Source: an uncultured bacterium
GTDB lineage: Bacteria; Krumholzibacteriota; Krumholzibacteriia; LZORAL124-64-63
Assembly: GCA_903912525.1 (NCBI GenBank)
Contig: CAIWHK010000022.1
Location: 19,734 to 83,733, forward strand
Length of the DNA stretch: 64,000 nucleotides
Reading direction: 5' to 3'
Position numbers and translations under genes: made by a program. Below are positions 13,434-28,823 of this stretch, piece after piece. Under the pieces are notes generated by a model. It had not been told where the DNA came from. It saw only the letters and a list, made by a program, of their open reading frames with translations, and did not search any database. The first letter of the stretch is position 1; every line of letters starts with the position of its first letter.

Positions 13434-13470
13434 TACCTTTCCTCCTTGTACCGGTCGTTTCTAACGCGGA

Positions 13471-15045: not shown

Positions 15046-15057
15046 TCCGCACCCCCT

Positions 15058-16035
15058 CTAGTGGCCGCCGTGGCACCCGATCGCAAGACAGCCTTGGGGC
15101 TGCAGCGCGGGCGTCAGGAGGAGCCGGTTGGTGTACGAGCCGTGCACGTCGACATGGCATTCGTTGCAGGACACGCCGGCAAAGCGGTCACCGTGCATGC
15201 TGTTCATGTTGTGCCCCGGCACCGTGTGGCACTGCGAGCACAACTGGAAGTGCGGCGCCGCATAGGGCTGCTTCAGCAGCACCAGCTGGGCCGACCCGTG
15301 CGGATCGTGGCAGTTCAGGCAGCCGCCGTCCTCGACCGAGTAGTCGAGGGTCGCGGCATGCTCGAACGGGAACGGCCCGCGCATATTCGCGTGGCACTTG
15401 GCGCAGGTCGCGTTCACGTCGCGGCGGACCGCGCCGGCCATGCCGTCGTCACCCGAAAGGTGGCAATCGGTGCAACGGACCGCGCCCTCCTCGACCGGGT
15501 GGTGCGACAGCTGCGCGAACTGGCCGCGGACGCCGGTGTGGCACCCGTAGCACAGCTCCGGCTGCGAGGCGTGCAGCAGCCCCATGGCGGTACCTTCGTG
15601 CACACTGTGGCAGGCCGTGCAGGACACGTCAGCCGCGGCGTGCGCGCTGAGCGTCTGCTGGTTGACCTGGTGAACGCCCTGGTGGCAGGTCGCGCACACA
15701 GCGGACACTTCCCTGGCACCCAGCTTGGCCGGGTTGGCCATCGGGTTGGCCGAGGGGTCGTCCTGCCAGTGAGCCGGCTGGCCGGCGTGGCAACTGGTGC
15801 AGGAGATGCGGGTGGCCACATCCCCGGCCGCACCCATCAGCACCCGGTGCGGGCTGGCGGCCAGCGTTGCCGCCAGGCCGTCGTGGCAGTCCAGGCAGAC
15901 CGCAGTCTGGCCGGAACCGCCGGCGTCCGTGGCAGCCTCGGCGGCTCCCAGCGGCCCGGCGTTCCACGCCAGGCCGAGGGCGCAGCACAGCAGGCCGCCC
16001 ACGAACCATGACAATTTCCTGAAGTCAGCGTCCAA
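15058..16035 (-). CDS. MtrA/DmsE-family decahaem c-type cytochrome (periplasmic)
   Basis: Ten CxxCH motifs plus a terminal CLAIGCH. GPFPFEH...GGCLNCHDPHGS block as in MtrA/DmsE. TTG at 16035 (GAGG 8 nt upstream) gives a normal signal peptide. The ORF is open up to the ATG at 16149, but that stretch is AT-rich and polar. Confidence 0.88.
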   Translation of the reverse strand: MDADFRKLSWFVGGLLCCALGLAWNAGPLGAAEAATDAGGSGQTAVCLDCHDGLAATLAASPHRVLMGAAGDVATRISCTSCHAGQPAHWQDDPSANPMANPAKLGAREVSAVCATCHQGVHQVNQQTLSAHAAADVSCTACHSVHEGTAMGLLHASQPELCYGCHTGVRGQFAQLSHHPVEEGAVRCTDCHLSGDDGMAGAVRRDVNATCAKCHANMRGPFPFEHAATLDYSVEDGGCLNCHDPHGSAQLVLLKQPYAAPHFQLCSQCHTVPGHNMNSMHGDRFAGVSCNECHVDVHGSYTNRLLLTPALQPQGCLAIGCHGGH

Positions 16036-16112
16036 AGTGGAAACCTCTCGGTTCGGGTTGAGCGCCTCGTCGCGGAATATCCCTAGCGGAGAGTTGGTTG
16101 ATCGGTTGGAAG

Positions 16113-16149
16113 TGTCAAGCGCTTTAGTTGACAAATTAACAATTGTCAA
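16113..16149 (-). promoter_or_regulatory. TTGACA/TGTCAA inverted-repeat array upstream of the cytochrome operon
   Basis: TGTCAA (16113-16118), TTGACA (16128-16133) and TTGTCAA (16143-16149) form nested inverted repeats in an AT-rich stretch about 80-110 nt upstream of the proposed start. Confidence 0.4.
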
Positions 16150-16212: not shown

Positions 16213-16244
16213 ACAAAAAGAAGCGACTCCCGAAGGAGTCGCTT
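16213..16244 (-). terminator. rho-independent terminator ending the six-gene envelope operon
   Basis: Minus strand: AAGCGACTCC-ttcg-GGAGTCGCTT followed by CTTTTTGT. Confidence 0.85.
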
Positions 16245-16313: not shown

Positions 16314-17561
16314 TCAGTCTTCCCGCCCCGCCAGGGCGCCGGCATTGGCGACGACCCGGGTGATGCGCTCGACGATCTCCTTTTTTTCGCCGCCGTCGTC
16401 CTTGACCCCGAGATCCTCGCGCGCCCACGTCGCCTGCGGGAAGGGCCCGAGGCTCTCCAGCTCTTCCCAGCTGGTCACGCCGGTCTCCTTGCGGAAGACC
16501 AGGTCGCCGGTTTCGCCGCGATCGACCGTGATCAGGTCGCCGCGACGGATCTGCTCGCTGCAGATGAAATGGCTGATCGGGGTGACGATCTGCATCTCGA
16601 CGACACGCTTGAGCGGCCGGGCGCCGAACTGGACGTCGGTGCCGGTCTCGACCAGGAAGCGCTTGGCCTCCTGGGTGATCTCCAGCAGGAACGGCTCGCA
16701 GCAACGCAACGACCGGTGGTGCACCTGGGCGATCAGGATGTCGAGGATCGCGTACAGGTGCTGCTCCTTCAGCGTGTGGTAGGTGATGATCTCGTCGAAG
16801 CGGTTCAGGAACTCGAACGGGAAGACCTTTTTTGCCGCCCGCATGGCCGCATCTTCCACGTCGCGGTCCAGCTTGGCCTCGCTGGTGCCCGTCGAGAACC
16901 CGATGCCGTTCTGCGAGAGGTGGGCGCCCATCGCCTCGCTGCCGACGTTCGACGTCAGGATGATGATCGACTGCCGGAAGTCGACTTCCTCGTTGTTGCC
17001 CAGCACGACGGTGCCGTCCTCGAGGATGCCCAGCAGCAGGTTCCACAGCTTCGGGTGCGCCTTCTCGATCTCATCGAACAGGATGATCGACAGGTGGCGT
17101 TCGCTTTCGGGCGGGAACAGGCGACCGAGCTTGCTGTCGGTCTCACTGATCATGCCGGTCTGGGCGTCCAGCGCCTTGCGGTGGTGCCGATCGATGTTCT
17201 CCTGCGACAGGAGCGGGCGGATCTCGCCACCCACATAGCCCGGCGGCGAACCCAGCAGCTTCGAGATGTTGTAATGCGCGGAATATTCCTGGCAATTGAT
17301 CCGCGTGAACGCGCGGCGGTTGCCGAACACGGTCTCGGCCAACGCACGCACGGTCTCGGTCTTGCCGACGCCCGTCGGGCCCATGAACATCATCGTCAGC
17401 AGCGGCCGCTCCGGGTCATGGACGCCGGCGATCAGGCGGCTGAAGCTGTCGGACATCTTCTCGATCGCCTGGGGCTGCCCTACGACCATCTTGTTCATGT
17501 GCGCGGCAAAGCGGGAGATCTGCTCATTGCGCTTCTCATGGCGGAGAATCTTCACGTCCAT
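16314..17561 (-). CDS. single-module AAA+ ATPase related to the ClpA/ClpB D2 domain
   Basis: Walker A GPTGVGKT, Walker B IILFDEIEKAHP, sensor-1 ILTSN, GARPLKR, and D2-small-like C-terminus. No N-domain or D1. Start is uncertain (ATG at 17561, 17618 or 17657). Confidence 0.8.
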   Translation of the reverse strand: MDVKILRHEKRNEQISRFAAHMNKMVVGQPQAIEKMSDSFSRLIAGVHDPERPLLTMMFMGPTGVGKTETVRALAETVFGNRRAFTRINCQEYSAHYNISKLLGSPPGYVGGEIRPLLSQENIDRHHRKALDAQTGMISETDSKLGRLFPPESERHLSIILFDEIEKAHPKLWNLLLGILEDGTVVLGNNEEVDFRQSIIILTSNVGSEAMGAHLSQNGIGFSTGTSEAKLDRDVEDAAMRAAKKVFPFEFLNRFDEIITYHTLKEQHLYAILDILIAQVHHRSLRCCEPFLLEITQEAKRFLVETGTDVQFGARPLKRVVEMQIVTPISHFICSEQIRRGDLITVDRGETGDLVFRKETGVTSWEELESLGPFPQATWAREDLGVKDDGGEKKEIVERITRVVANAGALAGRED

Positions 17562-17740
17562 GTCCTGTTCGTTGGCGTCAGGTCGGCTGCCGGTTCGGAC
17601 GGCAGTCGGGACATCCATGTCCTGGGGCAGATGAGCGAAACCCACCCGTGGCGCCATTTTCGGACGCCAACGGGTGGGCTTGAGGGCAAATGCAGAAGGA
17701 AAGGGAGCGCAAATCATGCGCTCCCTTGAGATTATGGTGG

Positions 17741-19453
17741 TCAGGAACCTTCCAGGTACGGTTTGGCGAGGTATGGAGCCTGCGGCGCGCCGGGCTTTTC
17801 GACCCAACGGTCATCCAGGCGCACCTTCAGCGGGCTGTGGCGGCCGATGTACTGCTCGACGGCCTCCAGCTGCGTGACCCCCGTGGGCGTGACCTTCGAG
17901 GCCGGGATCGACGTCAGGAACCCCAGGCCGCTGTTGCCGGCCATGAGGAAGTCCGTGATCACGACGTCGTACTCGGCATCCGGGTCCCAGGGCTTGCCGC
18001 CGATCTCGAGTTCCACCACGCGATCCTTGTCGGGCCGCGTCGGGTCGATGACGACGCGGGCGCCCGACAGCAGGATGCCCCCGCTGCGGCCCTCCACGCG
18101 CGATTCGATCAATCGGCGCACCATGCGTCCGTCCATGGTCACGACGTCGAGCTCGTTGCCGAACGGGAGGATCGAGAACACTTCGCGCGTGGTCAGGTCG
18201 CCCCCCGGCAGGTCGGCGCGCAGGCCGCCCGTGTTCTGGACAGCAAGGTCGGCGCTGAACTGCTCACGCATTGCGTCGGTGACGAGGTTGGCCACCGGGC
18301 TGGCGCCCGGGCCGCCCCGACCCAGCGGGCCCGACGACGAGCCGATGACCCGGCCCATCTCCGCCTCAGCCTGCTCGTGGTACGGGCGGATGACCGCGGT
18401 TGTCGCCGGGTCAGGCCAGATCTCATCCTCGAAGAGCGTGATCAGCGTACCCTGCGCGTCGGCCTTCTCGTACCCCACCAGCGAACGGGTCGTGCGATCG
18501 ATCAGCAGCACCGCGTGCCCGAGGCTGCTCCCGTTGCCGAAGCTCTCGAAGCACATGGTATGGGTCTGCGGGTCGATCCACGGCGCGCGATAGCCGCGGT
18601 GCGTGTGGCCGCCGACGGCGATATCCACGCCGCTGACGGCGTTGACCAGCTCCATGAGGTTCATGGAGCCGCGCGAGTAATTCGAGCCGAACGCGCCCTG
18701 CTGGTCGCGGTCGCTGCTCTCCTGGTCGGCCACGAGGTTGTTCCAGCCCGCGACCGGGTCGAACGGCAGGCCCTCGTGGATCGCCAGAAGGATCAGGTCG
18801 GCGCCCTGCGACTTCAACTGGTCGCGGTAGCGCTCGACGGTCGGCGCCATCTCCAGGAACTCGAGGCCCTCGATGTTCTTGGGGAACGACATGTGCTTCG
18901 TGCCCGGCGTGATGATGCCGATGACGCCGATGCGGATGCCGCCCATTTCGAGCATCAGCGTGGGCTGCACCCAGTCGACGAGCTTGCCGGTTGACGACTC
19001 CACCAGGTTCGCGCACAGCCAGGGGAACTTCGACATGCGCGCCAGGCGCTCGCAGTTCTCGCGGCCCATGTCGAAATCGTGGTTGCCCGGCACCGAGAAG
19101 GCATACCCGACGGCGTTGAAGTACTCGATGACCGCCGAGCCCTTCGTCTTGTTGCCGATGGGCGTGCCCTGGAACATGTCGCCGACATCCATCAGGAGCA
19201 CTTCGTCGCCGGAGGCCTTCGCCTTTGCCGTGACCTCGCCGATGTAGGTCGCGGCCGAGGCGCCGCCGCCGAGCGGCGGCGGGAAGTCAGGATTCATGAA
19301 CTTGGCGGGCTCGGGCGCAATGTGGCCGTGGACGTCGTTGGTCCACAGCAGGTGCACGCGCAGGAGCCCGTCATCCGGGGCGGCAAAACCGCTCGCGGCC
19401 GCCACCAGGCAGGCCGTCGCGACCAGGAACCGCAAGATGCGCAGTTTCGTCAT
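17741..19453 (-). CDS. secreted bifunctional metallophosphatase/5'-nucleotidase (UshA-like)
   Basis: NDVHGH, GDMFQGT, GNHDFD, GGHTH calcineurin-like motifs plus a 5'-nucleotidase C-terminal domain. Signal peptide present. ATG lies 1 nt after the upstream stop. Confidence 0.88.
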   Translation of the reverse strand: MTKLRILRFLVATACLVAAASGFAAPDDGLLRVHLLWTNDVHGHIAPEPAKFMNPDFPPPLGGGASAATYIGEVTAKAKASGDEVLLMDVGDMFQGTPIGNKTKGSAVIEYFNAVGYAFSVPGNHDFDMGRENCERLARMSKFPWLCANLVESSTGKLVDWVQPTLMLEMGGIRIGVIGIITPGTKHMSFPKNIEGLEFLEMAPTVERYRDQLKSQGADLILLAIHEGLPFDPVAGWNNLVADQESSDRDQQGAFGSNYSRGSMNLMELVNAVSGVDIAVGGHTHRGYRAPWIDPQTHTMCFESFGNGSSLGHAVLLIDRTTRSLVGYEKADAQGTLITLFEDEIWPDPATTAVIRPYHEQAEAEMGRVIGSSSGPLGRGGPGASPVANLVTDAMREQFSADLAVQNTGGLRADLPGGDLTTREVFSILPFGNELDVVTMDGRMVRRLIESRVEGRSGGILLSGARVVIDPTRPDKDRVVELEIGGKPWDPDAEYDVVITDFLMAGNSGLGFLTSIPASKVTPTGVTQLEAVEQYIGRHSPLKVRLDDRWVEKPGAPQAPYLAKPYLEGS

Positions 19454-19454
19454 C

Positions 19455-20792
19455 TCAGAACTCCATCGAGTAGCTGACGCCGACGCGGAACCGGGTGTCC
19501 TCGACCCGCGCATAGGAATCCGTGACGAAGGCATCGCCGAAATAGGCTGCAGGATACGGGAACTGGTGCGCAAGCACGCCGCTCAGCTTGGTCAATTCGA
19601 CCGAGGCGCTCAGGCGCCCTGCCCCCACACCGGCGGCCGTGCCGGCCGTGAAGGCGGTCAGGCCCGCATCGCGATCGGCATAGCTGTTGATGTGCCGGAA
19701 CCCGAACCGCAGCGGCATGCCGTTGTAGAACGTGTGCTCGACGCCCATGCGGATGTCGGCGGCGTCCTGCAGCAGCGTCGACGGGTCATCGAGCGTCCCG
19801 TCGCGCAGTTCACTCCAGGGCCGGTACTCGACCTCGAACGTGAACACCGTCGGGAGGTTGTTGCGGGGCCGGAACGCCAGGCCGGCGCGCGCGCACCACG
19901 GGTAGTCGTAGTAGGCGCTGGTCGTCGTGTCGGTGGCCGCCGCCGGCGAGACCGTGAAGGTCTCCTGGCGCCAGTCACCCGTCGACTTCAGGTTGCTCTC
20001 CACCGCGAAGCCCAGGTCCAGGCGCTCGTTCACGCTTGCGCGCAGGCCTGCCGAGGCGCTGAGGCCCGACAGCTTCAGCTCCTGGCTGTTGCGGTAGCTG
20101 TCGTTCGTGCCCGCGTTGTCGAGGTCGATCGAGCTGACCGCCTCGTTCCGCGTGCCGAAGTTGTAGTGGAAGGCAGCCCCGATCGAGACCTTCTCGCTGG
20201 CCTCGGCCGCGGCGCCGAACGAGAGCGCGTGCAGCGTGCCGGTCACCTTGCGTTCGCGCACGGAAATCAGCATGTCACGCGCGGGCTCGCCCGAGCCGGG
20301 CGGGTACGGGCTGGGATTGCGCAGTTCCTCGTAGAACGAGTAGTTGAACGGCAGCCGGTCGGTCAGCGACACGCCGAACGCCACGGCGCGCGGGCCCGAA
20401 CCCACGCGTTTGGCGAAGCCGAAGTCGCTCTGGAAGGAGTGGCTCCGGTTGCTGGCGATGGCCGCGTCGATGACCCAGCTGTCGAAGCTGTCGAACAGCG
20501 GCTGGAAGCGGTCCTCATGCTCCTGGTTGAGCACGATGCCGCCGTCGATCCGCTTGCCCGTCTCGACGACGAGGAACGCCGGGTTGAACACGTTGGACAG
20601 GCCACCACGGTAGATCGCCGTGCCGGTGCCGCCCATGGCGGCGGACTCGGCCCCGATCCACGAGAACTGGTCGCCGTACCTGGTCGTCATCTGGGGCCCG
20701 GCCACCGCCTGACCGGCCACCGCCAGGCTGATCAGCGCCGCCGTGACCACCGTCGCCGCGCCGCTCGGGAAACTGTACTTGCTCGTCTTCAT
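19455..20792 (-). CDS. outer-membrane beta-barrel protein, FadL/PorV-superfamily-like
   Basis: Signal peptide, N-terminal GAESAAMGGTGTA...NPAFL motif, and C-terminal aromatic residue (YSMEF). Confidence 0.65.
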   Translation of the reverse strand: MKTSKYSFPSGAATVVTAALISLAVAGQAVAGPQMTTRYGDQFSWIGAESAAMGGTGTAIYRGGLSNVFNPAFLVVETGKRIDGGIVLNQEHEDRFQPLFDSFDSWVIDAAIASNRSHSFQSDFGFAKRVGSGPRAVAFGVSLTDRLPFNYSFYEELRNPSPYPPGSGEPARDMLISVRERKVTGTLHALSFGAAAEASEKVSIGAAFHYNFGTRNEAVSSIDLDNAGTNDSYRNSQELKLSGLSASAGLRASVNERLDLGFAVESNLKSTGDWRQETFTVSPAAATDTTTSAYYDYPWCARAGLAFRPRNNLPTVFTFEVEYRPWSELRDGTLDDPSTLLQDAADIRMGVEHTFYNGMPLRFGFRHINSYADRDAGLTAFTAGTAAGVGAGRLSASVELTKLSGVLAHQFPYPAAYFGDAFVTDSYARVEDTRFRVGVSYSMEF

Positions 20793-20814
20793 CTCGCGAG
20801 TCTCCTCGGCTTTG

Positions 20815-23346
20815 TCAGAACGTGTAGTCCATCTGCAGACGGACGGTGGTGATGTCGCGCGTCACTCCCTGGGCGTCCGGGGCGTTGCCGAACGGATCGC
20901 CGAAGTAACGGATGTCGACGTCGCGCGGCATCTTGTGATCCCGCGTGACCTTGAGTTGGCAAAGCAGCCGGTCGGAGACGCGGCTTTCGACCGAAATCCA
21001 GTTGCGGAACGCGTTGCCGTCGAGCACCACGAACTCGTTGCCCTCGAAATTCCAGAAGAACCCATTGTAGATGGCCGAGGCGCACTCGATCGCCAGTCCG
21101 GGCGACAGGTTGTGCTCGTACCGGGCCTCGAAGGCCGAGGCCCGGCTGCCGGCGGTGCCCACCGCCGGGTCGCCGGCGCCGGCATCGTCGGTGCCGCCGA
21201 GGCGGGGCCGGGCCGGGAACATGACGTTGGCCGTCATGTAGGTGAACCTCAGCCGGTTGTAGTCGCTGAGCATGAACGCGGACTGGAAACGCGTCTCCCA
21301 GTTGCGGAACTTGCGGACATCGCCCGGGTCGTCCTCCGAGCGGCTGCTGTAGCGATGACGGACGCCCAGGCGGACGTTGAAGACCGGTTGGTACTCGCCC
21401 TTGATCGTGTACCGCATCAGGTCGGCGCCGTCGGCCTTGCGTGTCCACTGGTCGAACTGGAGGTTGTTCAGGATCAGTTTGCGGCTGATCCGGTACCGCA
21501 TGTCCAGGAACAGGCCCTTCTCGGCCTTCGGTTGCGGGGTGGCGGTCTCCAGCCACGTGTACAGGTCGTCGTTCAGGCGGTACGGCGCATCCAGCAGCGT
21601 CATCTCGTAGCGGCTGTCGTTGCTGAAGGCGCGCGAGTACGGGTTGTCGAAGCCGATGTCGTAGTCGCGCCAGATGGCCAGGAGGTGCAGGTTGTCCCAC
21701 TGGCTGAAGGCGTTGATGATGTAGGCATCGGGATTGTCCTTGTGGAACAGGCTGTTCCGCGGGTCCTGCAGGAATGCGTATTCGCCCTGCAGCGACACGT
21801 TGGCGACCACGGCCTGGCCCTCGGCGCCGAGCACGCGCCGGTACTTGTGCGTCTGGACCTCGCCGTTTTCGTCCGTGTACACGCTGGTGTAGCCGTTCCA
21901 GATCTCCGCGTCGCGGGCCTCGAGCAGGCTCGTGTCGGTGACCAGGGTCGTCTCGTCGGCGCGGAAACCGCGGTTGTACCGGGCCTCGTAGCCGCCGACC
22001 CCGAGGAACGTGCCGGGGGCCAGCATGACCTTGACGTTGCCGCCAAGCATGTCCTCACGGAAGGCATTGCGACGCAGGCCGGTCGCCACGCCGCCGACCG
22101 AACGGTCGAGCAGCCAGTCGCCGTCCGGGCGCGGCCGCATCACGACGTACCGGTTGATGGTGCCGTCGGCGTTGAGCACCCCGTCCTTGTCGGCGCTCGA
22201 GATGAACGCCGTGGCCTGCACCGGCCCCCAGGAACCTTCGGCGGCGGCGCCGGTCAGCGCGAACTCGAAGCTGCGCGACAGGTCGCCGTACACGCCGATC
22301 GGCCGGGTGTCAAAGCCGAACCCGGTCTTGCGGTACTTGAGGTAGTCGGTGTTGTCCATGATCAGGCCGAGGCCCCAGGCGACGCGGTAGTTGCCGAACA
22401 TGAGCGACTTCAGGCGGAGATTGCCGCGGCGCTTGTCGGTCAGGCCCACGAAGGCCTTGGTGGTCTCGTTCCAGTCCGGCTCACCGTATTCACGGGCGGT
22501 CACCAGTCCGGCCTGAACGCCGGAATTGTGATTCAGGCGCACCTTGTTCATCCACCCGGGCTGGGCAGGGTTCACCATGTCCACCGTGTAGCGACCGCGC
22601 GGCCGCCCCAGCGCGAAGTTCAGCAGGTCGTCTTCCGTATCGAGCGGCTGCGCTTCCCAGAACCGGGTCTGCATGAAGCCGGTCAGCTCGTTGGGCACGA
22701 CCTGCTTGCGGTTGTAGACCACATAGTCGCGCAGGCCGCGGAACGAGAAGTAGCGCAGGCCCTCGACACCGCGCAGTTGCCGCTCGTCCTCGATGCGGCC
22801 CATCTGCCCACGGGCACGAATGACCGCCGCGGCATCCACGGGCGACACGTTCTGGTACGACATCAGGTCGTAGAGGTCCAGTTCGTTGACGTCCTGCGGG
22901 TTGCGCAGGCGGTCGAGGTACTCGTCGGCCAGGCCCTCGCTGGCGCCCTCCTCTCCCAGGAAGTTCTGCACCGTCCGGAACGAAGCGGACAGCCGGGCGA
23001 TCGAGGCGTCGGCGACCGGGGGCGGGAGCGTCGCCACCAGGGGCTTGAGCTGCTCGAGGAGGGCGGCGGTCATCCCGTCGACCTCCATCAGCTCGTAGAC
23101 GCTGCCATAGAAGCGTTCGTAGACGCGGTGCTCATAGATCCTGCGCGCAATGTCGGCCGGAACGGGCAGCGCGAGGATCTCCTCGAGCGCCGCGCTGTTC
23201 AGGTCGACCTGCGCCGGCGCCGCCCGGGCCGCGCTCGTCGCGTCGTCGACGAGGGGCAGCCCCGCCAACAACGCAAGCCCGAGCGCCAGCGCCAGGACCG
23301 TCGCGGAAACCCGCGACCGGGCCGTGCGGTTGTTCTTGGTGGTCAT
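20815..23346 (-). CDS. large outer-membrane beta-barrel protein with N-terminal ComEA-like helix-hairpin-helix region
   Basis: Signal peptide. VDLNSAALEEILALP...ELMEVDGMTAALLEQLKPLV resembles the ComEA tandem HhH, but the GIG loops are degenerate. About 700 aa of strand-like sequence ends in ...QMDYTF. ATG lies 2 nt after the upstream stop. Confidence 0.6.
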   Translation of the reverse strand: MTTKNNRTARSRVSATVLALALGLALLAGLPLVDDATSAARAAPAQVDLNSAALEEILALPVPADIARRIYEHRVYERFYGSVYELMEVDGMTAALLEQLKPLVATLPPPVADASIARLSASFRTVQNFLGEEGASEGLADEYLDRLRNPQDVNELDLYDLMSYQNVSPVDAAAVIRARGQMGRIEDERQLRGVEGLRYFSFRGLRDYVVYNRKQVVPNELTGFMQTRFWEAQPLDTEDDLLNFALGRPRGRYTVDMVNPAQPGWMNKVRLNHNSGVQAGLVTAREYGEPDWNETTKAFVGLTDKRRGNLRLKSLMFGNYRVAWGLGLIMDNTDYLKYRKTGFGFDTRPIGVYGDLSRSFEFALTGAAAEGSWGPVQATAFISSADKDGVLNADGTINRYVVMRPRPDGDWLLDRSVGGVATGLRRNAFREDMLGGNVKVMLAPGTFLGVGGYEARYNRGFRADETTLVTDTSLLEARDAEIWNGYTSVYTDENGEVQTHKYRRVLGAEGQAVVANVSLQGEYAFLQDPRNSLFHKDNPDAYIINAFSQWDNLHLLAIWRDYDIGFDNPYSRAFSNDSRYEMTLLDAPYRLNDDLYTWLETATPQPKAEKGLFLDMRYRISRKLILNNLQFDQWTRKADGADLMRYTIKGEYQPVFNVRLGVRHRYSSRSEDDPGDVRKFRNWETRFQSAFMLSDYNRLRFTYMTANVMFPARPRLGGTDDAGAGDPAVGTAGSRASAFEARYEHNLSPGLAIECASAIYNGFFWNFEGNEFVVLDGNAFRNWISVESRVSDRLLCQLKVTRDHKMPRDVDIRYFGDPFGNAPDAQGVTRDITTVRLQMDYTF

Positions 23347-23348
23347 GG

Positions 23349-24236
23349 TCACGGCGCCTCCCCGCCCCAAGCCAGGCGAACGCCGAACTGGTGCGTGCTC
23401 GAGAGCGTGCCGCCGCCGGTCGAGAAGCCGTAGTCGACGCCCACGGGGCCCTTGCGGTAGCCGAAGCCGCCGGTCAGCCGGTTGGGGTCGGTGACCACAC
23501 CGGCCCGCAGGGTGAACCCGTCGATGATCGCCATCTCCAGGCCGCCGTGGTAGCGGACTTCGCGACCAAGCGTGTTGTCGAACTCGAACGTGGTCAGGAC
23601 GCCGTCGTACGGCTCGTAGGCGATGCCGGCGACCAGGGCCCGCGGCAGTTCCTGGCCGTCGAAACCGATCGTCGGGTTGTTCAGGTTGTGCACCTGGACA
23701 CCGGCGCGCGTCCGCTTGTGCAGGACCATCGTCAGGCCCGCATCAACGCCGATCGCCGTGTCCGAACCGGGTTCGAAACCGCTCACGCTCTGGCCGGCTT
23801 CCGCGCTGTAGAGATTCAGCGCCCAGCCCACGCAGATGCGCGAATGGTAGTCGGAGAACAACTGGAAGCCCTGCCCCAGCGTGACCCGGGTCTCGCTCAG
23901 CAGGGTCGTGTCACCGGTCGCCACCTTGAAGTGGCTGACGCCCACACCCAGGTTGCCGAAGCTCCCCTGCAGCGGCAGCGCAGCAGAGGCCGCGTAGAAA
24001 TCGGAGAACGACAGGCCGAACGGGCGCACGTAGGACGCCGCCATCTCGCCGTTCGGCACGTCGGCCAGCCAGGCCGCGTTCTGGAACACGGCAAAGGCCG
24101 CGTCGGGCACGGCCGTGAAGGACTCGCCCATTGCCCGGGAGCGGGCGCTCACGGGCGTCGACTCGAAGTAGGCCCCCGCCGGCGCCGCCAGGGCGAGCCC
24201 GGCCAGGATCAGCAGGATTGTTGCTTTGCGGATCAT
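23349..24236 (-). CDS. PorV/PorQ-like outer-membrane protein
   Basis: Signal peptide, then SARSRAMGESFTAVPDAAFAVFQNAAWLA, which resembles the PorV-family N-terminal motif. Beta-rich, 295 aa. Confidence 0.55.
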   Translation of the reverse strand: MIRKATILLILAGLALAAPAGAYFESTPVSARSRAMGESFTAVPDAAFAVFQNAAWLADVPNGEMAASYVRPFGLSFSDFYAASAALPLQGSFGNLGVGVSHFKVATGDTTLLSETRVTLGQGFQLFSDYHSRICVGWALNLYSAEAGQSVSGFEPGSDTAIGVDAGLTMVLHKRTRAGVQVHNLNNPTIGFDGQELPRALVAGIAYEPYDGVLTTFEFDNTLGREVRYHGGLEMAIIDGFTLRAGVVTDPNRLTGGFGYRKGPVGVDYGFSTGGGTLSSTHQFGVRLAWGGEAP

Positions 24237-24248
24237 CGCTCGCCCTTC

Positions 24249-26921
24249 CTATTTGCTCAGCCGCGTGGCGACAACCACGGGGGCGGTGCGGGTTTCCTCG
24301 ACGCCGGTCGTCTTGTCGACCACCGACAGGTGCACGATGTACATGCCGCCGTCGACCGACTGCATCGTCTCGTCGAGTCCGTTCCACTGCGCAGTCGTGT
24401 AGCGACCGGGCGTCGTGGACGGCGAGCCGCTGAAGCGGCTGTCGAACAGGGTGCGCACCAGACGACCATCACGATCGTAGAGGCGCACGCGCGTCTCGCT
24501 GCGCGGGCGGCTGACGAACTTGATCGGGAACGACTCGCCCAGCGACGGCAGGAAGGTCTTGGCCGGCACCACCAGTTCGATGATGCCCTTGACGCCGGTG
24601 TCGGCGATGCGGGGCCGCGACGGATCGGACGGCTGCATGGCCCAGGTAAGCGTCCAGTTCTCGCTGAGCTCGTCACGCCCGCCCACGCCGTTGCTGCCGG
24701 AAGTGACCTGGGCACCCTCGGTCGCATCGATGCGGACGTACGAATTGCCGAAAGCCAGCTGCTGCTGGAACGGGTGCTGCTGCGCCACGGAGGTCTCGGG
24801 CAGGTACGTGGCGCCGCCGACGGTCTTGCCCGTCTTCGAGAACTGGTAGCTGACGGTGGTGCCGGCCAGCCAGACGAAGACGTCGACGTCGGTCACCAGC
24901 GGGGATCCCACGGTCCACTTGTAGAGGATCACGGGCTCGCCCGTGTTCGTCAGGCTCGGAACCGAGGCCGAGCTGACGATGCTGTTGTTCGGCTCCGGGA
25001 AGATCGAACGCATGTCCGGGACCGCGTCCGGGAACGCGTCGTCCTCGTGCAGTTCGATGTCGGGCTCGAATCCGAACGACGCGGTGAAGGCCGTACTGCC
25101 CGGGATCGAGATGACGATCGTGTCACCCGCGGCGATCATGAAGCCGTCGGGGAAGCGCGCCGTGAAATCCGTGAACGCGCCGCCGCCGACCGTATCGGCG
25201 TTCAGCGTGCCGCCGCCCATGTTCCAGTAACCGGTGTTGGCCGTGGAGTAGATGGCATCCGAGAGGTAGTAGTCGCTCAGGTTCACGGCCTGGCTGCTGG
25301 GATTCCAGATCTCGATGAACTCCTGCTCGGCGCCGAGCGTGCAGACTTCCGTCAGCAGCAGCTTCGGGTCCGGGGCGGCAGCCACCGTCCAGCCGTGCGT
25401 CGAGGTCGGCGCGTCGGCGGGGCTCGAACTGCTGAGGGCGGCCGAGTTCGTCACGACGGCGTACCAGGTGACGGCCGCGCCGGCGTCCTGCCCGGGCACG
25501 GTCGCCGTGTACGTGCCGCCACCCTGCGCAACGCCGGCCAACTGCGTGAAGGCGCCGCCGTCCACGCTGTAGTGGAAGACAGCGCCGGACAGCGCGCTCA
25601 CGGAGGTCGCCGTCACCGAGACGGTCGCCGCCAGGTCGGCATAGGGAACCGACGGGCTCTGGCCGAAGGCGGTGATGGTCGGCGGCGGCGGCGCGATCAC
25701 GGTCCACTGCGACGTGAAGCGCGGCGCGGCCGACGGGTAGACCGCCGTTCCGCCGGCGGCGTTCGTCAGGCTGACCCACCAGTTCACGACAGCGCCCTCG
25801 GCCTGCGCCGGGAACTCGGCCGTCCAGATGTTGGCGCCCGACAGGATGCCGGCGACCTGGTTGTCCGAGCCCTGGTTGACGCTGTAGTGGAAGGTGGCCG
25901 CGGACATGGCGGTGGCCGACACTGCGGTGACGGAGACCGCGACATCCTCGCCGATCACCGGCGTGGCTGGCGTGCGCGACGTCGCGGTGACGATCGGGGC
26001 CGCCGCGTACGGTGAGGCGGGCGCCGCCGGGGGCGCCTGCACGGCCGTACGCCAGGTGGCCGACAGGTTCTCGCTGGTCTCGTTGTGCCCGGTCACGCCG
26101 TTGCCGGCGGCCAGCGCCTCGGTGCCTTCATCCGCCGACAGGCGGGAATAGGCATTGGGGGGCGTGAGCGCGGACACCGACACCGCGACCTGGCTGGCGA
26201 CGGGCGTGTCGGCGAGGTACAGCGACGAACCGACGCCGATGCCGGTCTTGTCGATGCAGACGGTCGTGCCCGATCCCCAGCGGATGTAGTCCGCGTCCTG
26301 CACCAGTTCGCTGCTGCCGTTCCAGCGGTAGAGCACCAGGCTCTCGCCGTTCTCGGCCAGGGCCGGCGTGTTGGTGCCGCCGCTGCCGAAACCGGCGGCG
26401 ATCGAGCCCGGGAAGGCCTCGACCATCTCGGGCACGTTGTCGGGGGCCAGCGCGTCCTCGTAGAGTTCGAAGTCGGGCGCGCGACCGTACGCTGTCTGGA
26501 ACTTCGTGCTCCCGGCCAGCGACACGACGATGGTGTCGCCGGCGGCCAGCATGTAGCCGCTCGGGAAGCGCGCATGGAAATCGCTGAAGGCGCCGCCGCC
26601 CGCCGTGGCCGTGGTCGGGCTCGCGTCGGCGATGCGCCAGTAATAGGTGTTGTTCGTCGTGACCGTCCCATCGGTCAGGTAGTACTGGCCGAGGTCGATC
26701 GCCGCAGCAGTCGGGTTGTGGATCTCCACGAACTCGCTGGCCGCGCGCGGGGCGACCGCGTCGAGCGTCTGGACTTCGGAGATGATCACGTGGTCAGCTG
26801 CGGCCGTGGGCGCACTGAGCGCCGCGGGCGCCAGCGTCATCGACGTCAGCACCATGGCCGCCGACAGCACGACGGGCAGCCACCGCCACGACGGCGACAA
26901 TTTCCTGCAAATACTCGACAT
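24249..26921 (-). CDS. secreted protein with two lamin-tail-domain (LTD) modules, Ig-like repeats and a FlgD-Ig/T9SS-type C-terminal domain
   Basis: Signal peptide. LTD signatures EFVEIHNP...LGQYYLTD and EFIEIWNP...LSDYYLSD. C-terminus RVRLYDRDGRLVRTL...WNGLD...GGMYIVHL. ATG at 26921 is preceded by AAGGGAGAG. Confidence 0.75.
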   Translation of the reverse strand: MSSICRKLSPSWRWLPVVLSAAMVLTSMTLAPAALSAPTAAADHVIISEVQTLDAVAPRAASEFVEIHNPTAAAIDLGQYYLTDGTVTTNNTYYWRIADASPTTATAGGGAFSDFHARFPSGYMLAAGDTIVVSLAGSTKFQTAYGRAPDFELYEDALAPDNVPEMVEAFPGSIAAGFGSGGTNTPALAENGESLVLYRWNGSSELVQDADYIRWGSGTTVCIDKTGIGVGSSLYLADTPVASQVAVSVSALTPPNAYSRLSADEGTEALAAGNGVTGHNETSENLSATWRTAVQAPPAAPASPYAAAPIVTATSRTPATPVIGEDVAVSVTAVSATAMSAATFHYSVNQGSDNQVAGILSGANIWTAEFPAQAEGAVVNWWVSLTNAAGGTAVYPSAAPRFTSQWTVIAPPPPTITAFGQSPSVPYADLAATVSVTATSVSALSGAVFHYSVDGGAFTQLAGVAQGGGTYTATVPGQDAGAAVTWYAVVTNSAALSSSSPADAPTSTHGWTVAAAPDPKLLLTEVCTLGAEQEFIEIWNPSSQAVNLSDYYLSDAIYSTANTGYWNMGGGTLNADTVGGGAFTDFTARFPDGFMIAAGDTIVISIPGSTAFTASFGFEPDIELHEDDAFPDAVPDMRSIFPEPNNSIVSSASVPSLTNTGEPVILYKWTVGSPLVTDVDVFVWLAGTTVSYQFSKTGKTVGGATYLPETSVAQQHPFQQQLAFGNSYVRIDATEGAQVTSGSNGVGGRDELSENWTLTWAMQPSDPSRPRIADTGVKGIIELVVPAKTFLPSLGESFPIKFVSRPRSETRVRLYDRDGRLVRTLFDSRFSGSPSTTPGRYTTAQWNGLDETMQSVDGGMYIVHLSVVDKTTGVEETRTAPVVVATRLSK

Positions 26922-27302
26922 CGAACCACTCTCCCTTTTCGAGGGTGCGGGACGGGTTTCCCGAACGAACAGGTCGCGAGGGGAGTGGGACAATAGCGCC
27001 GTGGGGAGCGTGATTCAAGGCGGATCGATTTTGCCCACCGGGGCCACGTACGGCCGAACGAACAATCCGTATCGTTTGCCTCGCATCGGTTTTGGAGTTC
27101 GCGCCCCTGAGGGCGACGCGCCGGAAATCCGACGCGAACGGTCGGCTGTTCCCGCACCGTGACGAATGCCAGGCGGCGCGAAGCCGACCTGTATTGTATA
27201 GTCCACTGGTTCGTGGAAGGCGCATGGCACTGGTGCGCCCCGCCTGGCAGCCGGAACCTGCACGCTGACACCCCGTTGCGGGCCGGCGTGGACGGAGCAA
27301 GC

Positions 27303-28823
27303 GTGCGCGACCCGTTTTTCCGCCTCACCCGCCGGCAACGCTGGCGCACCGTCGCCTGGCGCCTGCGCCGGGCCCTGGGCGCCCCGGCGCCGCGGTCGCC
27401 TGCCCGGATGCCGGAAGACGCTCCAGCACATCTGTTGCTGGTCGGCGTGGATACGCTGCGGGCCGACCACCTCGGCTGCCAGGGCTACGGCAGGGAAACA
27501 TCCCCGCGCCTGGACCACCTGGTCTCCACCGGTACGCGCTTCGCTGACGTTACGGCCCCCGCGCCGTGGACACTTCCCTCGTTCACCGGCGCACTCACCG
27601 GGTTGATGCCGGGCCTGCACGGCGCCCATCTCGGCGGCGACGCCCGCAACATGGACAAGCAGGCTCCGGGCCGCGTGCGCCCGGGCGTGGTGACGCTGGC
27701 CGCGCACTTGCAGGCGCAGGGCTACCGCACTGCCGCCTTCTACGCGAACCAGTTCTTCGCCTTCGGCCTGGCCGAGAGTTTCGGCACGCATGCCTACCAC
27801 AACCTGCCCGCTGCCGACATGCTGGCGATGGCGCACGACTGGCTGCGCAGGAACGCGGATCGCCCCTGCTTCTGCTTCGTCCTGGTGAACGATCCGCACG
27901 AGCCGACGACGCCGCCGTGGAACGACCTCGCGCCGTTCCTGCCGGCGCCTGCGCCGACGGATGCCCAGTTGGCTGATCTCGCCCGCTGGGGCGGCACCGC
28001 ATGGCCTCATCTCGGTCGCGCCGCAGATGCCGGCGCCGCCGACGTCCGGGCCGCGCTGGATGTGAAGATCGCGATTTATGACGCGACGATCCGCCAGGTC
28101 GATCGCGCGATCGGGAATCTGCAGGACGCCCTGCAGTCCTGCGGCCTGGCCGACCGCACGCTGGTGTCGGTATTCTCGGACCACGGCGAGGAGTTCCTCG
28201 ACCACGCAGCCTGGGCCGCGCAGTGGGACCACGACCCGCGCGGGCTGCGCGGCATCGGACACGGGCAGAGCCACTTCCAGGAACTGCTGCACGTGCCCTG
28301 GCTGGCGTGGGGAACGGGCGTGCCGAAGGGCGTGGTCGTCGAGGCGCCGGCCTCGCTGCTCGACCTGGCGCCGACGGTGCTCGACTGGCTGGGATTGCCG
28401 CCGCTACCGCCGGTGGCTCTGCCGGGGGACGTCCCGCCCGGGTTGGCGTCGGCCCTGGTCGGCCGGTCACTCGCCGCCGCTGCCACGCACCCCGCCCCCG
28501 CGGCAACGGACGCGCCCGCGCGCCTGCGCCTGGCCGAGGCCATTGCCTACGGCCCCGACCTCGTCGCGGTGCGACAGGGAAACTGGAAATTCATCGCCGC
28601 ACGGGACGGGCGCCCCCTGGCGCTGTTCGACCTCGCCGCCGACCCCGCCGAGCAGCACGACGCGGCCGCCGCCCATCCCGACGTGCTGGCGCGGATGACC
28701 GCCGTCGTCGAAGCCTGGCGCGCAAGCGGCGCCGGTGCCTGCGAAACCGTCCAGGGCGCCGAATGGGGCGACCTGGACGGTGTCGTGCGTGAGCGGTTGC
28801 GCGATATGGGCTATTCCGAATAG
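27303..28823 (+). CDS. sulfatase-like hydrolase/transferase (alkaline-phosphatase superfamily)
   Basis: LLLVGVDTLRADHLG metal-site motif. The nucleophile position reads TLPS rather than C/S-x-P-x-R. Also FSDHGEEF. Start is uncertain (GTG 27303 with GGAG upstream, or ATG 27408). No obvious signal peptide. Confidence 0.75.
   Translation: MRDPFFRLTRRQRWRTVAWRLRRALGAPAPRSPARMPEDAPAHLLLVGVDTLRADHLGCQGYGRETSPRLDHLVSTGTRFADVTAPAPWTLPSFTGALTGLMPGLHGAHLGGDARNMDKQAPGRVRPGVVTLAAHLQAQGYRTAAFYANQFFAFGLAESFGTHAYHNLPAADMLAMAHDWLRRNADRPCFCFVLVNDPHEPTTPPWNDLAPFLPAPAPTDAQLADLARWGGTAWPHLGRAADAGAADVRAALDVKIAIYDATIRQVDRAIGNLQDALQSCGLADRTLVSVFSDHGEEFLDHAAWAAQWDHDPRGLRGIGHGQSHFQELLHVPWLAWGTGVPKGVVVEAPASLLDLAPTVLDWLGLPPLPPVALPGDVPPGLASALVGRSLAAAATHPAPAATDAPARLRLAEAIAYGPDLVAVRQGNWKFIAARDGRPLALFDLAADPAEQHDAAAAHPDVLARMTAVVEAWRASGAGACETVQGAEWGDLDGVVRERLRDMGYSE

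What the first reader, a model, noticed from the sequence alone, without database searches (positions are those of the whole stretch)
16314..26921. Six-gene tightly packed envelope operon: LTD surface protein, PorV-like, HhH-barrel, FadL-like OMP, 5'-nucleotidase, AAA+
Gene gaps are 12, 2, 22 and 1 nt, then about 80-180 nt before the AAA+ gene, and a strong terminator follows at 16213-16244. This suggests one transcript with five secreted or outer-membrane products. My hypothesis is a surface module for capturing and processing extracellular nucleic acids or nucleotides. Lamin-tail domains in bacteria are often attached to secreted nucleases and phosphatases. The 843-aa barrel starts with a ComEA-like tandem helix-hairpin-helix, although its GIG loops are degenerate. 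FadL-type barrels move small hydrophobic or amphipathic substrates. A UshA-like 5'-nucleotidase would dephosphorylate nucleotides in the periplasm, and adenosine deaminase lies elsewhere in the window. I do not recognise this combination as a described system. None of the large proteins has an obvious catalytic domain apart from the nucleotidase.
Basis: inference. Interest (0 to 1): 0.65.

Follow-up and report, generated by a model that had tools for sequence, protein, structure and literature searches.

The report
Conserved outer-membrane nucleic-acid foraging operon
Five tightly packed envelope genes form an operon that is conserved across several uncultured bacterial phyla and is repeatedly joined to nuclease genes, so it is most likely an undescribed outer-membrane machine for catching and digesting environmental DNA or RNA.

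Summary
Six minus-strand genes lie at the stated coordinates with gaps of 12, 2, 22 and 1 nt, and every domain call was verified.

The unit is a five-gene core, not six. A strong hairpin terminator follows the 5'-nucleotidase gene. The AAA+ gene is lost outside Krumholzibacteriota (4/19 distant loci).

The core order persists in 91 loci, in MAGs labelled Krumholzibacteriota, Eisenbacteria, Marinimicrobia and WOR-3. It is:
- an LTD surface protein with a T9SS-like C-terminal domain;
- a PorV-like barrel;
- a 24-strand barrel with two ComEA-like HhH domains;
- a FadL/BamG-like barrel;
- a periplasmic 5'-nucleotidase.

In distant lineages the flanking genes differ completely. The accessory genes are all nuclease-type: a ComEC-like MBL lipoprotein, an ExeM/NucH-like EEP nuclease, NucT-like PLD nucleases and ExeM-type OB folds. 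One locus carries nucleoside-salvage genes.

The large barrel has no solved or characterised relative. Its predicted lumen is rich in conserved arginines.

No binding, transport or expression data exist. I found no description of the cluster in the literature.

The parts
24249..26921 (-). G1: 890-aa secreted surface protein. Order of parts: signal peptide, LTD module 1 (about aa 43-295), two ~100-aa beta-sandwich repeats (about aa 305-515, one hitting CBM_56), LTD module 2 (about aa 520-765), C-terminal sorting-type domain. No catalytic domain.
   Evidence: Pfam LTD 69.6 bits in 2 stretches and CBM_56 29.6 bits. The sequence was read. Orthologs lie upstream of G2 in 51/51 close and 16/21 distant loci. 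Some orthologs add or substitute OB folds, PKD or Big_5 domains.
24252..24599 (-). C-terminal domain of G1 (about aa 775-890). It is an FlgD-Ig/T9SS-CTD-like beta-sandwich and the presumed handle for surface anchoring.
   Evidence: In the window protein FlgD_ig reaches only E 0.058. In orthologs FlgD_ig reaches 4.5e-12, CHU_C 2.4e-5 and Por_Secre_tail 1.8e-4, and one matches the PorU C-terminus at 8.7e-6. The same domain type ends the FG-GAP protein at 47787-49961, so it is a general sorting signal.
23349..24236 (-). G2: 295-aa PorV/PorQ-like outer-membrane barrel of the FadL superfamily, with a signal peptide and the N-terminal NPA-type motif.
   Evidence: NCBIfam PorV_fam E 2.2e-12, full length, below the cut-off. 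The ortholog profile hits the PorV structure 6h3i_F at E 5.7e-9. hhalign to the G4 family gives probability 95%. Adjacent to G3 in 60/60 close and 20/24 distant loci.
20815..23346 (-). G3: 843-aa outer-membrane protein, the most conserved and defining component. Signal peptide, two ComEA-like HhH_3 domains (aa 46-215, nt 22702-23211, predicted periplasmic) and a 24-strand beta-barrel (aa 221-843, nt 20818-22686) ending in ...MDYTF.
   Evidence: HHH_3 E 2e-11. Aligns to ComEA and EEPD1 HhH domains. AlphaFold model pLDDT 72. No solved relative: Foldseek TM <= 0.30. 55-91% identity across the phylum. About 180 representatives at E < 1e-30 among 1.84 billion proteins. Predicted lumen has 31 R/K against 16 D/E.
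19455..20792 (-). G4: 445-aa, 14-strand FadL-fold barrel with an invariant NPA motif (N70 P71 A72). Its nearest solved relatives are the BamG subunits of Bacteroidota BAM complexes.
   Evidence: Model pLDDT 84. Foldseek: 9hiv_F TM 0.65/0.70, 9hjm_F 0.65/0.73, FadL 0.61-0.67. Profile against PDB: BamG at 1.5e-6. NCBIfam BamG 52 bits against a cut-off of 250. Adjacent to G3 in 54/54 close and 23/25 distant loci.
17741..19453 (-). G5: 570-aa periplasmic 5'-nucleotidase of the UshA/NadN/CD73 family. It has a type I signal peptide and intact metal and catalytic motifs (NDVHGH, GDMFQG, GNHDFD, GGHTH).
   Evidence: Pfam Metallophos and 5_nucleotid_C. Best PDB matches 3ivd 6e-47, 2z1a and UshA. Orthologs have signal peptides without a lipobox. 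Linked in 41/41 close and 19/22 distant loci.
17701..17727 (-). Hairpin 13 nt after the G5 stop, with an 11-bp stem followed by a pyrimidine-rich tail. It is the likely terminator of the five-gene operon.
   Evidence: -21.1 kcal/mol, z -4.2, 0 of 200 shuffles as stable. The stem is kept by compensatory changes in L004, L005, L007, L008 and L044. Other GC hairpins with T tracts take its place in L026, L030, L035, L036 and L038.
16314..17657 (-). G6: cytoplasmic single-ring AAA+ protein equivalent to ClpB NBD2 plus the D2-small domain. The true start is probably near 17571. It is a neighbour, not part of the conserved module.
   Evidence: AAA_2 and ClpB_D2-small. No signal peptide. 66-89% identical in the phylum, with conservation starting at DVKILRHEK. 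Present in only 4/19 distant loci. It has its own conserved upstream motif.
16221..16244 (-). Intrinsic terminator after G6: 10-bp stem, UUCG loop and a T tract.
26922..27110 (.). Divergent intergenic region between G1 and a sulfatase/alkaline-phosphatase-superfamily gene (27111-28823, + strand). Presumed promoter region of the operon.
   Evidence: Position only. No sigma-70-type site was found. The sulfatase neighbour is conserved only within Krumholzibacteriota.

Best explanation
G1 to G5 form one operon. It encodes an outer-membrane complex that forages for extracellular nucleic acid, working like a polysaccharide-utilisation locus but for DNA, RNA or nucleotides.

Proposed mechanism (all steps inferred unless marked shown):
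1. G1 is exported. It is held on the cell surface through its T9SS-type C-terminal domain by the PorV-like barrel G2, in the way PorV and PorQ hold CTD proteins. Its LTD modules (OB folds in some lineages) bind extracellular nucleic acid.
2. Where nucleases are present they fragment the polymer. These are lipoprotein or secreted enzymes of ComEC-MBL, ExeM/NucH-EEP or NucT-PLD type, encoded in the operon in other lineages. In this genome they must lie elsewhere.
3. The polyanionic fragments or nucleotides cross the outer membrane through G3. G3 is a 24-strand barrel with a conserved arginine-rich lumen. Its two tethered periplasmic ComEA-like HhH domains bind and retain incoming nucleic acid.
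4. G4, a FadL/BamG-like barrel, is a second adaptor or structural subunit of the complex.
5. The periplasmic 5'-nucleotidase G5 removes the phosphate, giving nucleosides and Pi for uptake and salvage.

Shown here: gene order and its conservation, domain identities, folds of G3 and G4, intact G5 catalytic motifs, and the nuclease nature of the accessory genes.

Inferred: localisation, complex formation, substrate, and direction of transport.
For: Conserved order:
- G1-G2-G3-G4-G5 is found in every close locus with enough flank (51/51, 60/60, 54/54, 41/41).
- It is found in most loci with G3 below 50% identity (16/21, 20/24, 23/25, 19/22). There the Krumholzibacteriota flanking genes (U1, U2) are gone.
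- Members carry the labels Eisenbacteria, Marinimicrobia, WOR-3 and others.

Nuclease-type accessory genes:
- MBL lipoprotein between G4 and G5, or nearby, in 16 distinct loci (18 entries, three of them one contig). Intact HxHxDH. Best NCBIfam match ComEC/Rec2.
- EEP protein after G5 in a Marinimicrobia locus. Best match ExeM/NucH.
- Two secreted HKD proteins in WOR-3. Best matches DrmC and NucT.
- The WOR-3 G1 analogue carries ExeM/NucH-type OB modules, E 8.7e-19.
- Faint OB-fold hits in G1 orthologs.
- Uridine-kinase-family, nucleoside phosphorylase and amidohydrolase genes next to the cluster in L089.
- DHH/DHHA1 near L091.

G3:
- HhH domains align with ComEA and EEPD1.
- In Calditrichota, G3 lies 4.4 kb from ComEC.
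- Predicted lumen-facing strand residues are 31 basic against 16 acidic. Among residues at least 80% conserved, 14 are basic and 5 acidic. R659, R661, R663 and R665 form an arginine ladder.
- Short turns on one side and long loops on the other put the N-terminal HhH domains in the periplasm.

Other parts:
- G2 is homologous to PorV and G4 to BamG/FadL. Both PorV and BamG anchor surface proteins (PMC12611786).
- G5 is catalytically intact and has a signal peptide.
- LTD-containing nucleic-acid-binding proteins and 5'-nucleotidases co-localise in described DNA-degradation loci of Ca. Izemoplasmatales (PMC8289736).
Against: - No experiment or expression data exist for any family member.
- The window's own operon has no nuclease.
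- The first HhH hairpin lacks G-I-G (LP-IPxD with a one-residue deletion) and the second reads G-M-T, so DNA binding may be weakened or lost.
- LTD function in bacteria is not established. The OB-fold hits in G1 orthologs are mostly 'faint'.
- The G3 model is only moderately confident (pLDDT 72). Its most conserved loops are modelled poorly, so the lumen-charge count is approximate and the pore could be plugged.
- In Zixibacteria and Calditrichota, G3 occurs without G2, G4 or G5, next to LapA, LapB and SPOR envelope genes. This hints at a more general envelope role.
- No energy source for polymer uptake is evident.
- The PorV and BamG family scores are far below the curated cut-offs.
Confidence: 0.55

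Rival explanations
1. Mononucleotide or phospho-ester scavenging only. G3 is an anion-selective porin for small phosphorylated solutes such as NMPs, NAD, UDP-sugars or polyphosphate, which G5 then dephosphorylates. This resembles the Haemophilus OmpP2/NadN route. No polymer crosses the membrane, and the HhH domains have a structural role.
For: G5 is related to NadN and UshA. The arginine ladder recalls phosphate-selective porins (the comparison is from my own knowledge). The window operon has no nuclease. The HhH hairpins are degenerate.
Against: A 24-strand barrel is much larger than a small solute needs. Two ComEA-like domains are conserved in all lineages examined, from six phylum-level labels. 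Endonuclease-type partners and surface LTD or OB proteins point to a polymeric substrate.
Confidence: 0.17
2. Surface-display or secretion module. G2, G3 and G4 export or anchor the LTD-CTD protein, a generic adhesin, as a small lineage-specific analogue of the T9SS attachment or usher pathway. The nucleotidase is an unrelated passenger gene.
For: G1 carries a T9SS-type CTD. G2 is PorV-like and G4 is BamG-like. G3 has 24 strands, as ushers do, and the highest Foldseek query-normalised TM values were to FimD and PapC at 0.28-0.30. Extra LTD-CTD proteins flank the cluster in L077, L081, L086, L088 and L089.
Against: The 5'-nucleotidase is linked in 19/22 distant loci, too consistently for a passenger. 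The accessory genes are nucleases, not adhesin-maturation factors. The CTD is shared with unrelated proteins, which implies a general secretion route elsewhere. The HhH domains have no role in this model. TM 0.3 is only generic barrel similarity.
Confidence: 0.13
3. DNA uptake for natural transformation. G3 replaces the PilQ secretin and soluble ComEA as the outer-membrane entry step, delivering DNA to ComEC.
For: ComEA-like domains. ComEC-like MBL and NucT-like nucleases, both known from competence systems. ComEC lies near G3 in the Calditrichota locus.
Against: No ComEC channel, ComF, DprA or pilus genes lie in or near the cluster in any other locus. A 5'-nucleotidase and nucleoside-salvage genes indicate degradation to nucleosides, not preservation of strands. 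The MBL proteins are lipoproteins without the ComEC membrane domain.
Confidence: 0.08
4. General envelope-biogenesis factor. G3 is a core outer-membrane protein of these phyla with a housekeeping role, and the operon partners are lineage-specific additions.
For: Sequence conservation is unusually high for an OMP, including the loops. In Zixibacteria and Calditrichota, G3 follows LapA, LapB and SPOR genes. G4's nearest relative is a BAM subunit.
Against: No BamA, LptD or Lol genes are linked. One MAG may hold three copies of the cluster (L038, L041, L043), which is atypical for a core machine. The consistent nuclease and nucleotidase linkage is unexplained.
Confidence: 0.07

Closest known systems
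ComEA (with PilQ and ComEC) DNA-uptake machinery of competent bacteria
   Same: G3 carries two HhH_3 domains that align over their full length with ComEA of Thermus and Bacillus. They are predicted to be periplasmic. ComEC-type MBL and NucT-type nucleases occur in the cluster in other lineages.
   Different: The HhH domains are fused to a 24-strand barrel and are not free or membrane-anchored. The G-I-G hairpins are degenerate. No secretin, pilus, ComEC channel, ComF or DprA is linked. The cluster ends in a 5'-nucleotidase, which means catabolism.
Extracellular DNA utilisation in Shewanella and Vibrio (ExeM/NucH, Xds/Dns nucleases plus UshA/CpdB)
   Same: The building blocks are the same: LTD and OB modules as in ExeM/NucH, an EEP nuclease, and a periplasmic UshA-family 5'-nucleotidase (PMC6085458 and PMC4714964 listed).
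   Different: Those genes are scattered and rely on general porins. Here the binding protein has no nuclease domain, and the genes sit in one operon with three dedicated outer-membrane barrels.
'DNA-degradation loci' of Ca. Izemoplasmatales (Wasmund et al. 2021, PMC8289736)
   Same: A large LTD- and nucleic-acid-binding protein co-localises with nucleases, 5'-nucleotidases and transport genes in a locus dedicated to DNA foraging.
   Different: Those organisms have no outer membrane. Their loci use ABC transporters and contain no barrel proteins, and the proteins are not orthologous.
T9SS PorV/PorQ carriers and the BamG-BamH pair of Bacteroidota
   Same: G2 and G4 are FadL-fold barrels homologous to PorV and BamG. 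G1 has a T9SS-type CTD. PorV, PorQ and BamG act as anchors for surface proteins.
   Different: Scores are far below family cut-offs: 47 against 90 bits and 52 against 250 bits. No SprA, PorU or BamA is in the neighbourhood. G2 is about 100 aa shorter than PorV.
Sus-like polysaccharide utilisation loci (SusCD)
   Same: The operon logic is the same: a surface binding protein, an outer-membrane conduit and a periplasmic hydrolase encoded together.
   Different: There is no TonB-dependent SusC, no SusD and no glycoside hydrolases. The conduit is a new barrel family without a plug domain signature or TonB box.

Membership tests
ComEA / HHH_3 (PF12836, TIGR01259) | HHH_3 domain above the Pfam gathering score | tested here: met
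   G3 aa 46-103: 44.2 bits against 27. The second copy (aa ~150-215) is seen in the alignment and in L083, which has 2 stretches.
ComEA / HHH_3 (PF12836, TIGR01259) | Gly-Ile/Val-Gly hairpins that contact the DNA backbone | tested here: not met
   The first hairpin is LP-IPxD with a one-residue deletion relative to LPGIGP. The second is G-M-T in place of G-I-G.
ComEA / HHH_3 (PF12836, TIGR01259) | Whole-protein match to comEA (small soluble or anchored periplasmic protein) | tested here: not met
   TIGR01259 scores 27 bits against a cut-off of 152. The protein is 843 aa with a 24-strand barrel.
PorV/PorQ family (NF033709) | Score above the curated cut-off | tested here: not met
   G2 scores 47.2 bits against 90, although the alignment spans 24-288 of 295 aa.
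PorV/PorQ family (NF033709) | Homology to a solved PorV | tested here: met
   The G2 ortholog profile hits 6h3i_F PorV at E 5.7e-9.
PorV/PorQ family (NF033709) | Works with the T9SS translocon SprA and sortase PorU in the same genome | not testable with these tools
   Only a 64-kb window is available and it holds no T9SS core gene. CTD-bearing proteins are present.
FadL / Toluene_X (PF03349) | 14-strand barrel with an N-terminal hatch and NPA motif | tested here: met
   G4 model TM 0.61-0.67 to FadL and TodX. N70, P71 and A72 are invariant in 38 sequences.
FadL / Toluene_X (PF03349) | Pfam match above threshold | tested here: not met
   The window G4 has no Pfam hit at E <= 0.01. Only some orthologs carry PF03349.
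BamG (NF053685) | Equivalog score and association with BamA/BamD | tested here: not met
   52.2 bits against 250. No BamA or BamD appears in any of the loci examined.
5'-nucleotidase / UshA family (PF00149 + PF02872) | Both domains above threshold and metal/catalytic motifs intact | tested here: met
   Scores 37.2 and 113 bits. The DxH, GD, GNH(D/E) and GHxH motifs are visible in the alignment to 3ivd.
5'-nucleotidase / UshA family (PF00149 + PF02872) | UshA equivalog (NF007109) | tested here: not met
   168.9 bits against a cut-off of 600. It is a family member, not a UshA ortholog, and substrate specificity is untested.
Lamin tail domain (PF00932) | Pfam match above threshold | tested here: met
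   G1 scores 69.6 bits against 34.3 in two stretches.
T9SS C-terminal sorting domain (PF18962 / TIGR04183 / PF13860-like) | Recognisable CTD at the extreme C-terminus | tested here: inconclusive
   Window G1: FlgD_ig E 0.058 only and no NCBIfam hit. Orthologs: FlgD_ig to 4.5e-12, CHU_C 2.4e-5, Por_Secre_tail 1.8e-4, PorU C-terminus 8.7e-6.
ClpB/Hsp104 AAA+ (G6) | Two nucleotide-binding domains plus N and M domains | tested here: not met
   Only NBD2 (AAA_2) and D2-small are present. ClpB equivalog scores 248 bits against 1232.
Sus-like PUL | SusC (TonB-dependent) and SusD pair | tested here: not met
   No Plug, TonB_dep_Rec or SusD family hit in G1-G5.

The most novel reading that the evidence does not exclude
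G3 founds a new class of outer-membrane nucleic-acid translocon. It is a 24-strand, arginine-lined barrel with a built-in periplasmic ComEA-type ratchet. It is served by two FadL-fold adaptor barrels and a CTD-anchored DNA-binding 'fishing' protein.

On this reading it gives uncultured phyla, including the Marinimicrobia, a pilus- and secretin-independent route for taking DNA or RNA fragments across the outer membrane as food.
Probability: 0.3. Interest if true: 0.85.

Novelty: new variant of a known kind. Interest (0 to 1): 0.7.

Why it matters
Extracellular DNA is a major pool of P, N and C in sediments, soils and sludge. How Gram-negative foragers move its breakdown products across the outer membrane is poorly defined.

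This operon would be a dedicated, genetically compact answer to that question. It occurs in phyla with few or no cultured members, in MAGs labelled Krumholzibacteriota, Eisenbacteria, Marinimicrobia and WOR-3.

It also defines three things:
- A new large outer-membrane protein family with no solved or characterised relative.
- A second context, beyond T9SS and BAM, in which FadL-fold barrels appear to act as adaptors.
- A marker gene set for predicting DNA-foraging capacity from metagenomes.

If G3 really conducts nucleic acid, it would be the first such barrel-type channel outside the secretin/pilus paradigm.

Tried and rejected
- **Six-gene operon including the AAA+ gene.** Rejected. There is a hairpin terminator after G5, G6 is lost in 15/19 distant loci, and G6 has no signal peptide.
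- **G4 as a BamG ortholog or BAM component.** Rejected. It scores 52 against 250 bits and no BamA or BamD is nearby (and the context calls).
- **G3 as a relative of a solved barrel** (usher, LptD, TBDT, SlpA, AlgE). Foldseek gives only generic similarity, TM <= 0.30. The PDB profile search hits only the HhH part.
- **Synteny as mere phylum-level collinearity.** This was a real concern, because the flanks (sulfatase, Mrp/ParA, PTS-EIIA, RsgA) are also conserved in Krumholzibacteriota. It was resolved by finding the cluster with unrelated flanks in distant lineages.
- **Riboswitch or other known RNA in the operon.** No Rfam hit in the whole window.
- **Sigma-70 promoter.** None found. This is uninformative for this phylum.
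- **Sequence search of G1 against PDB.** Nothing significant.
- **Literature search for the cluster or for an HhH-barrel protein.** Nothing found.
- **Nearby adenosine deaminase as support.** It is real but lies 20 kb away and is not syntenic with the cluster elsewhere, so it carries little weight.
- **Limits.** I could not inspect model coordinates directly, so the lumen analysis rests on strand periodicity.

Full report
**1. Observation**

The window is 64 kb at about 69% GC. Between 16.3 and 26.9 kb, six minus-strand ORFs have the third-position GC bias of real genes, 0.86-0.91.

- G1 24249-26921 (890 aa)
- G2 23349-24236 (295 aa)
- G3 20815-23346 (843 aa)
- G4 19455-20792 (445 aa)
- G5 17741-19453 (570 aa)
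- G6 16314 to about 17571-17657

The gaps are 12, 2, 22 and 1 nt, then 83-169 nt, as reported. The terminator at 16221-16244 is real. G1 to G5 have N-terminal signal peptides and G6 has none.

**2. What each gene is**

- **G1** has two LTD modules (69.6 bits), two beta-sandwich repeats and a C-terminal FlgD-Ig/T9SS-CTD-like domain. It has no catalytic domain.
- **G2** gives a full-length but sub-threshold PorV/PorQ match. A profile of 16 orthologs hits the solved PorV at E 5.7e-9.
- **G3** has two ComEA-type HhH_3 domains followed by a barrel.
  - The AlphaFold model (pLDDT 72) shows 24 strands. The turns are 2-5 residues on one side and the loops are long on the other. This places the N-terminal HhH domains in the periplasm.
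  - Foldseek finds only generic barrels, TM <= 0.30.
- **G4** is a confident 14-strand FadL fold (pLDDT 84). It is closest to the BamG subunits of Bacteroidota BAM complexes and to FadL and TodX, and has an invariant NPA motif. G2 and G4 are homologous to each other.
- **G5** is a catalytically intact UshA/NadN/CD73-family 5'-nucleotidase with a type I signal peptide.
- **G6** is a cytoplasmic ClpB-NBD2-only AAA+ protein.

**3. Limits of the operon**

An 11-bp hairpin starts 13 nt after the G5 stop (-21 kcal/mol, z -4.2). It is kept by compensatory changes in close relatives. In others it is replaced by different GC hairpins with T tracts.

G6 also has its own conserved upstream motif. The transcription unit is therefore most likely G1-G5.

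**4. Conservation**

G3 homologs are 55-91% identical across MAGs, most labelled Krumholzibacteriota, so the window most likely derives from that phylum. A scan of species-representative genomes returned 80 loci, and eight more came from protein look-ups.

- Where G3 is at least 50% identical, G1, G2, G4, G5 and G6 are present whenever the flank is long enough: 51/51, 60/60, 54/54, 41/41 and 39/39.
- The outer flanks are conserved there too, so this alone proves little.
- In 26 loci with G3 below 50% identity the flanks are unrelated. The core persists: G1 16/21, G2 20/24, G4 23/25, G5 19/22. G6 does not: 4/19.
- These loci carry the labels Eisenbacteria, Marinimicrobia, WOR-3 and others.
- The family is small, with about 180 representatives at E < 1e-30 among 1.84 billion proteins. 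Every taxon-labelled member I saw was a MAG of a candidate phylum or an unclassified bacterium.
- In the Zixibacteria and Calditrichota loci, G3 stands without the partners, after LapA, LapB and SPOR genes. In the Calditrichota locus it lies 4.4 kb from ComEC.

**5. The accessory genes give the functional signal**

- **MBL lipoprotein.** In 16 distinct loci (18 entries, three of them one contig), a roughly 440-aa lipoprotein with an intact HxHxDH MBL motif lies between G4 and G5 or nearby. Its best family match is the nuclease domain of ComEC/Rec2.
- **EEP lipoprotein.** A Marinimicrobia locus adds an EEP lipoprotein after G5. Its best match is ExeM/NucH extracellular endonuclease.
- **WOR-3 locus.**
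  - Two secreted single-HKD proteins, resembling NucT and DrmC, sit between G4 and a divergent, N-domain-only UshA-like protein.
  - Its G1 analogue carries ExeM/NucH-type OB modules in place of LTDs, with the same CTD.
- **Other loci.** One locus has uridine-kinase-family, nucleoside phosphorylase and amidohydrolase genes beside the cluster. Another has a DHH/DHHA1 gene nearby.
- **CTD.** The G1 CTD type is shared with an unrelated FG-GAP protein in the window. It resembles T9SS CTDs in orthologs, so it is a general sorting tag.

**6. Mechanism proposed**

The proposed model has four steps:

1. A surface-anchored nucleic-acid binder (G1 held on G2).
2. A polyanion conduit with a periplasmic ComEA-like retention domain (G3).
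3. A second FadL-fold adaptor (G4).
4. A periplasmic 5'-nucleotidase (G5).

An analysis of strand periodicity supports an electropositive G3 lumen. Lumen-facing residues are 31 R/K against 16 D/E. Among positions at least 80% conserved across the sampled lineages (six phylum-level labels), 14 are basic and 5 acidic. There is an R659/R661/R663/R665 ladder.

This analysis is approximate, because I could not inspect coordinates and the most conserved loops are poorly modelled.

Localisation, complex formation, substrate and direction of transport are all inferences.

**7. Rivals**

I considered four alternatives:

- uptake of small nucleotides or phosphate esters only;
- a surface-display or secretion module for an LTD adhesin;
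- DNA uptake for transformation;
- a general envelope factor.

Each explains part of the data. None explains the consistent linkage of the nucleotidase with nuclease-type accessories.

**8. Comparison with known systems and novelty**

The parts belong to known superfamilies, but several defining features of the named families are not met (see the membership table).

The closest functional analogues are:

- Shewanella/Vibrio eDNA utilisation;
- the Izemoplasma DNA-degradation loci;
- ComEA-dependent DNA uptake;
- PorV/BamG-type adaptors;
- Sus-like loci.

None contains an HhH-barrel protein or this gene set. Four literature searches found no description.

I rate it a new variant of a known kind, namely nutrient- or DNA-foraging envelope loci. 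Its central component is a new protein family.

**9. Verdict**

Interest is 0.7.

Noticed in passing
window 17672-17684 (minus strand), and upstream of G6 in L001-L046: A conserved DNA motif YTCAAGCCCRCC lies a few tens of nt upstream of the AAA+ gene in nearly all Krumholzibacteriota loci. It is often preceded by TTGCAAT. It could be a promoter or operator, a 5'-UTR element, or unrecognised upstream coding sequence (LKPA).
   Followed up: partly
window 12423-16149 (minus strand): Immediately downstream of the terminator are a 363-aa multihaem cytochrome (paired CXXCH), a 524-aa secreted protein with no family hit, and a 345-aa MtrC-like multihaem cytochrome. This may be a porin-cytochrome extracellular electron-transfer module. 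It is conserved in the closest relatives (L005, L007, L008, L044).
   Followed up: partly
window 46789-49961 (minus strand): The adenosine deaminase gene (46789-47985) sits directly downstream of a 724-aa FG-GAP repeat protein (47787-49961). That protein's C-terminus carries the same FlgD-Ig/T9SS-like sorting domain as G1.
   Followed up: partly
window 16314-17657; alignment A8: The NBD2-only ClpB-like AAA+ protein is 66-89% identical across the phylum, on a par with or above the envelope genes. It ends in an invariant tail LGPFP..W..DLG(V/I)(K/R)DDGGEKK of unknown function.
   Followed up: no
L038, L041, L043 (all from MAG CAYMCR01): One MAG yields three separate contigs that each carry the G1-G3(-G5) cluster at 53-54% identity to the window. 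This means paralogous copies in one genome or a mixed bin.
   Followed up: no
L086 16762-18627: A second, shorter (621-aa) HHH_3-containing protein is encoded 4 kb downstream of the cluster in one distant locus that lacks the 5'-nucleotidase.
   Followed up: no
G3 aa 330-335, 560-581, 708-716, 762-769 (window about 22344-22359, 21604-21669, 21199-21225, 21040-21063): The most conserved motifs of the barrel protein are MDNTDY, RDYDVGFDNPYxRxF, FPPRPRL and GFLWNFEG. They lie in predicted extracellular loops, mostly modelled with low confidence. This is unusual for an outer-membrane protein and suggests an inward-folded constriction or a partner-binding surface.
   Followed up: partly
window 27111-28823 (+ strand): A sulfatase/alkaline-phosphatase-superfamily gene is transcribed divergently from G1. 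It has weak phosphodiesterase and phosphoethanolamine-transferase similarity. It is conserved next to the operon only within Krumholzibacteriota, and its substrate is unknown.
   Followed up: partly
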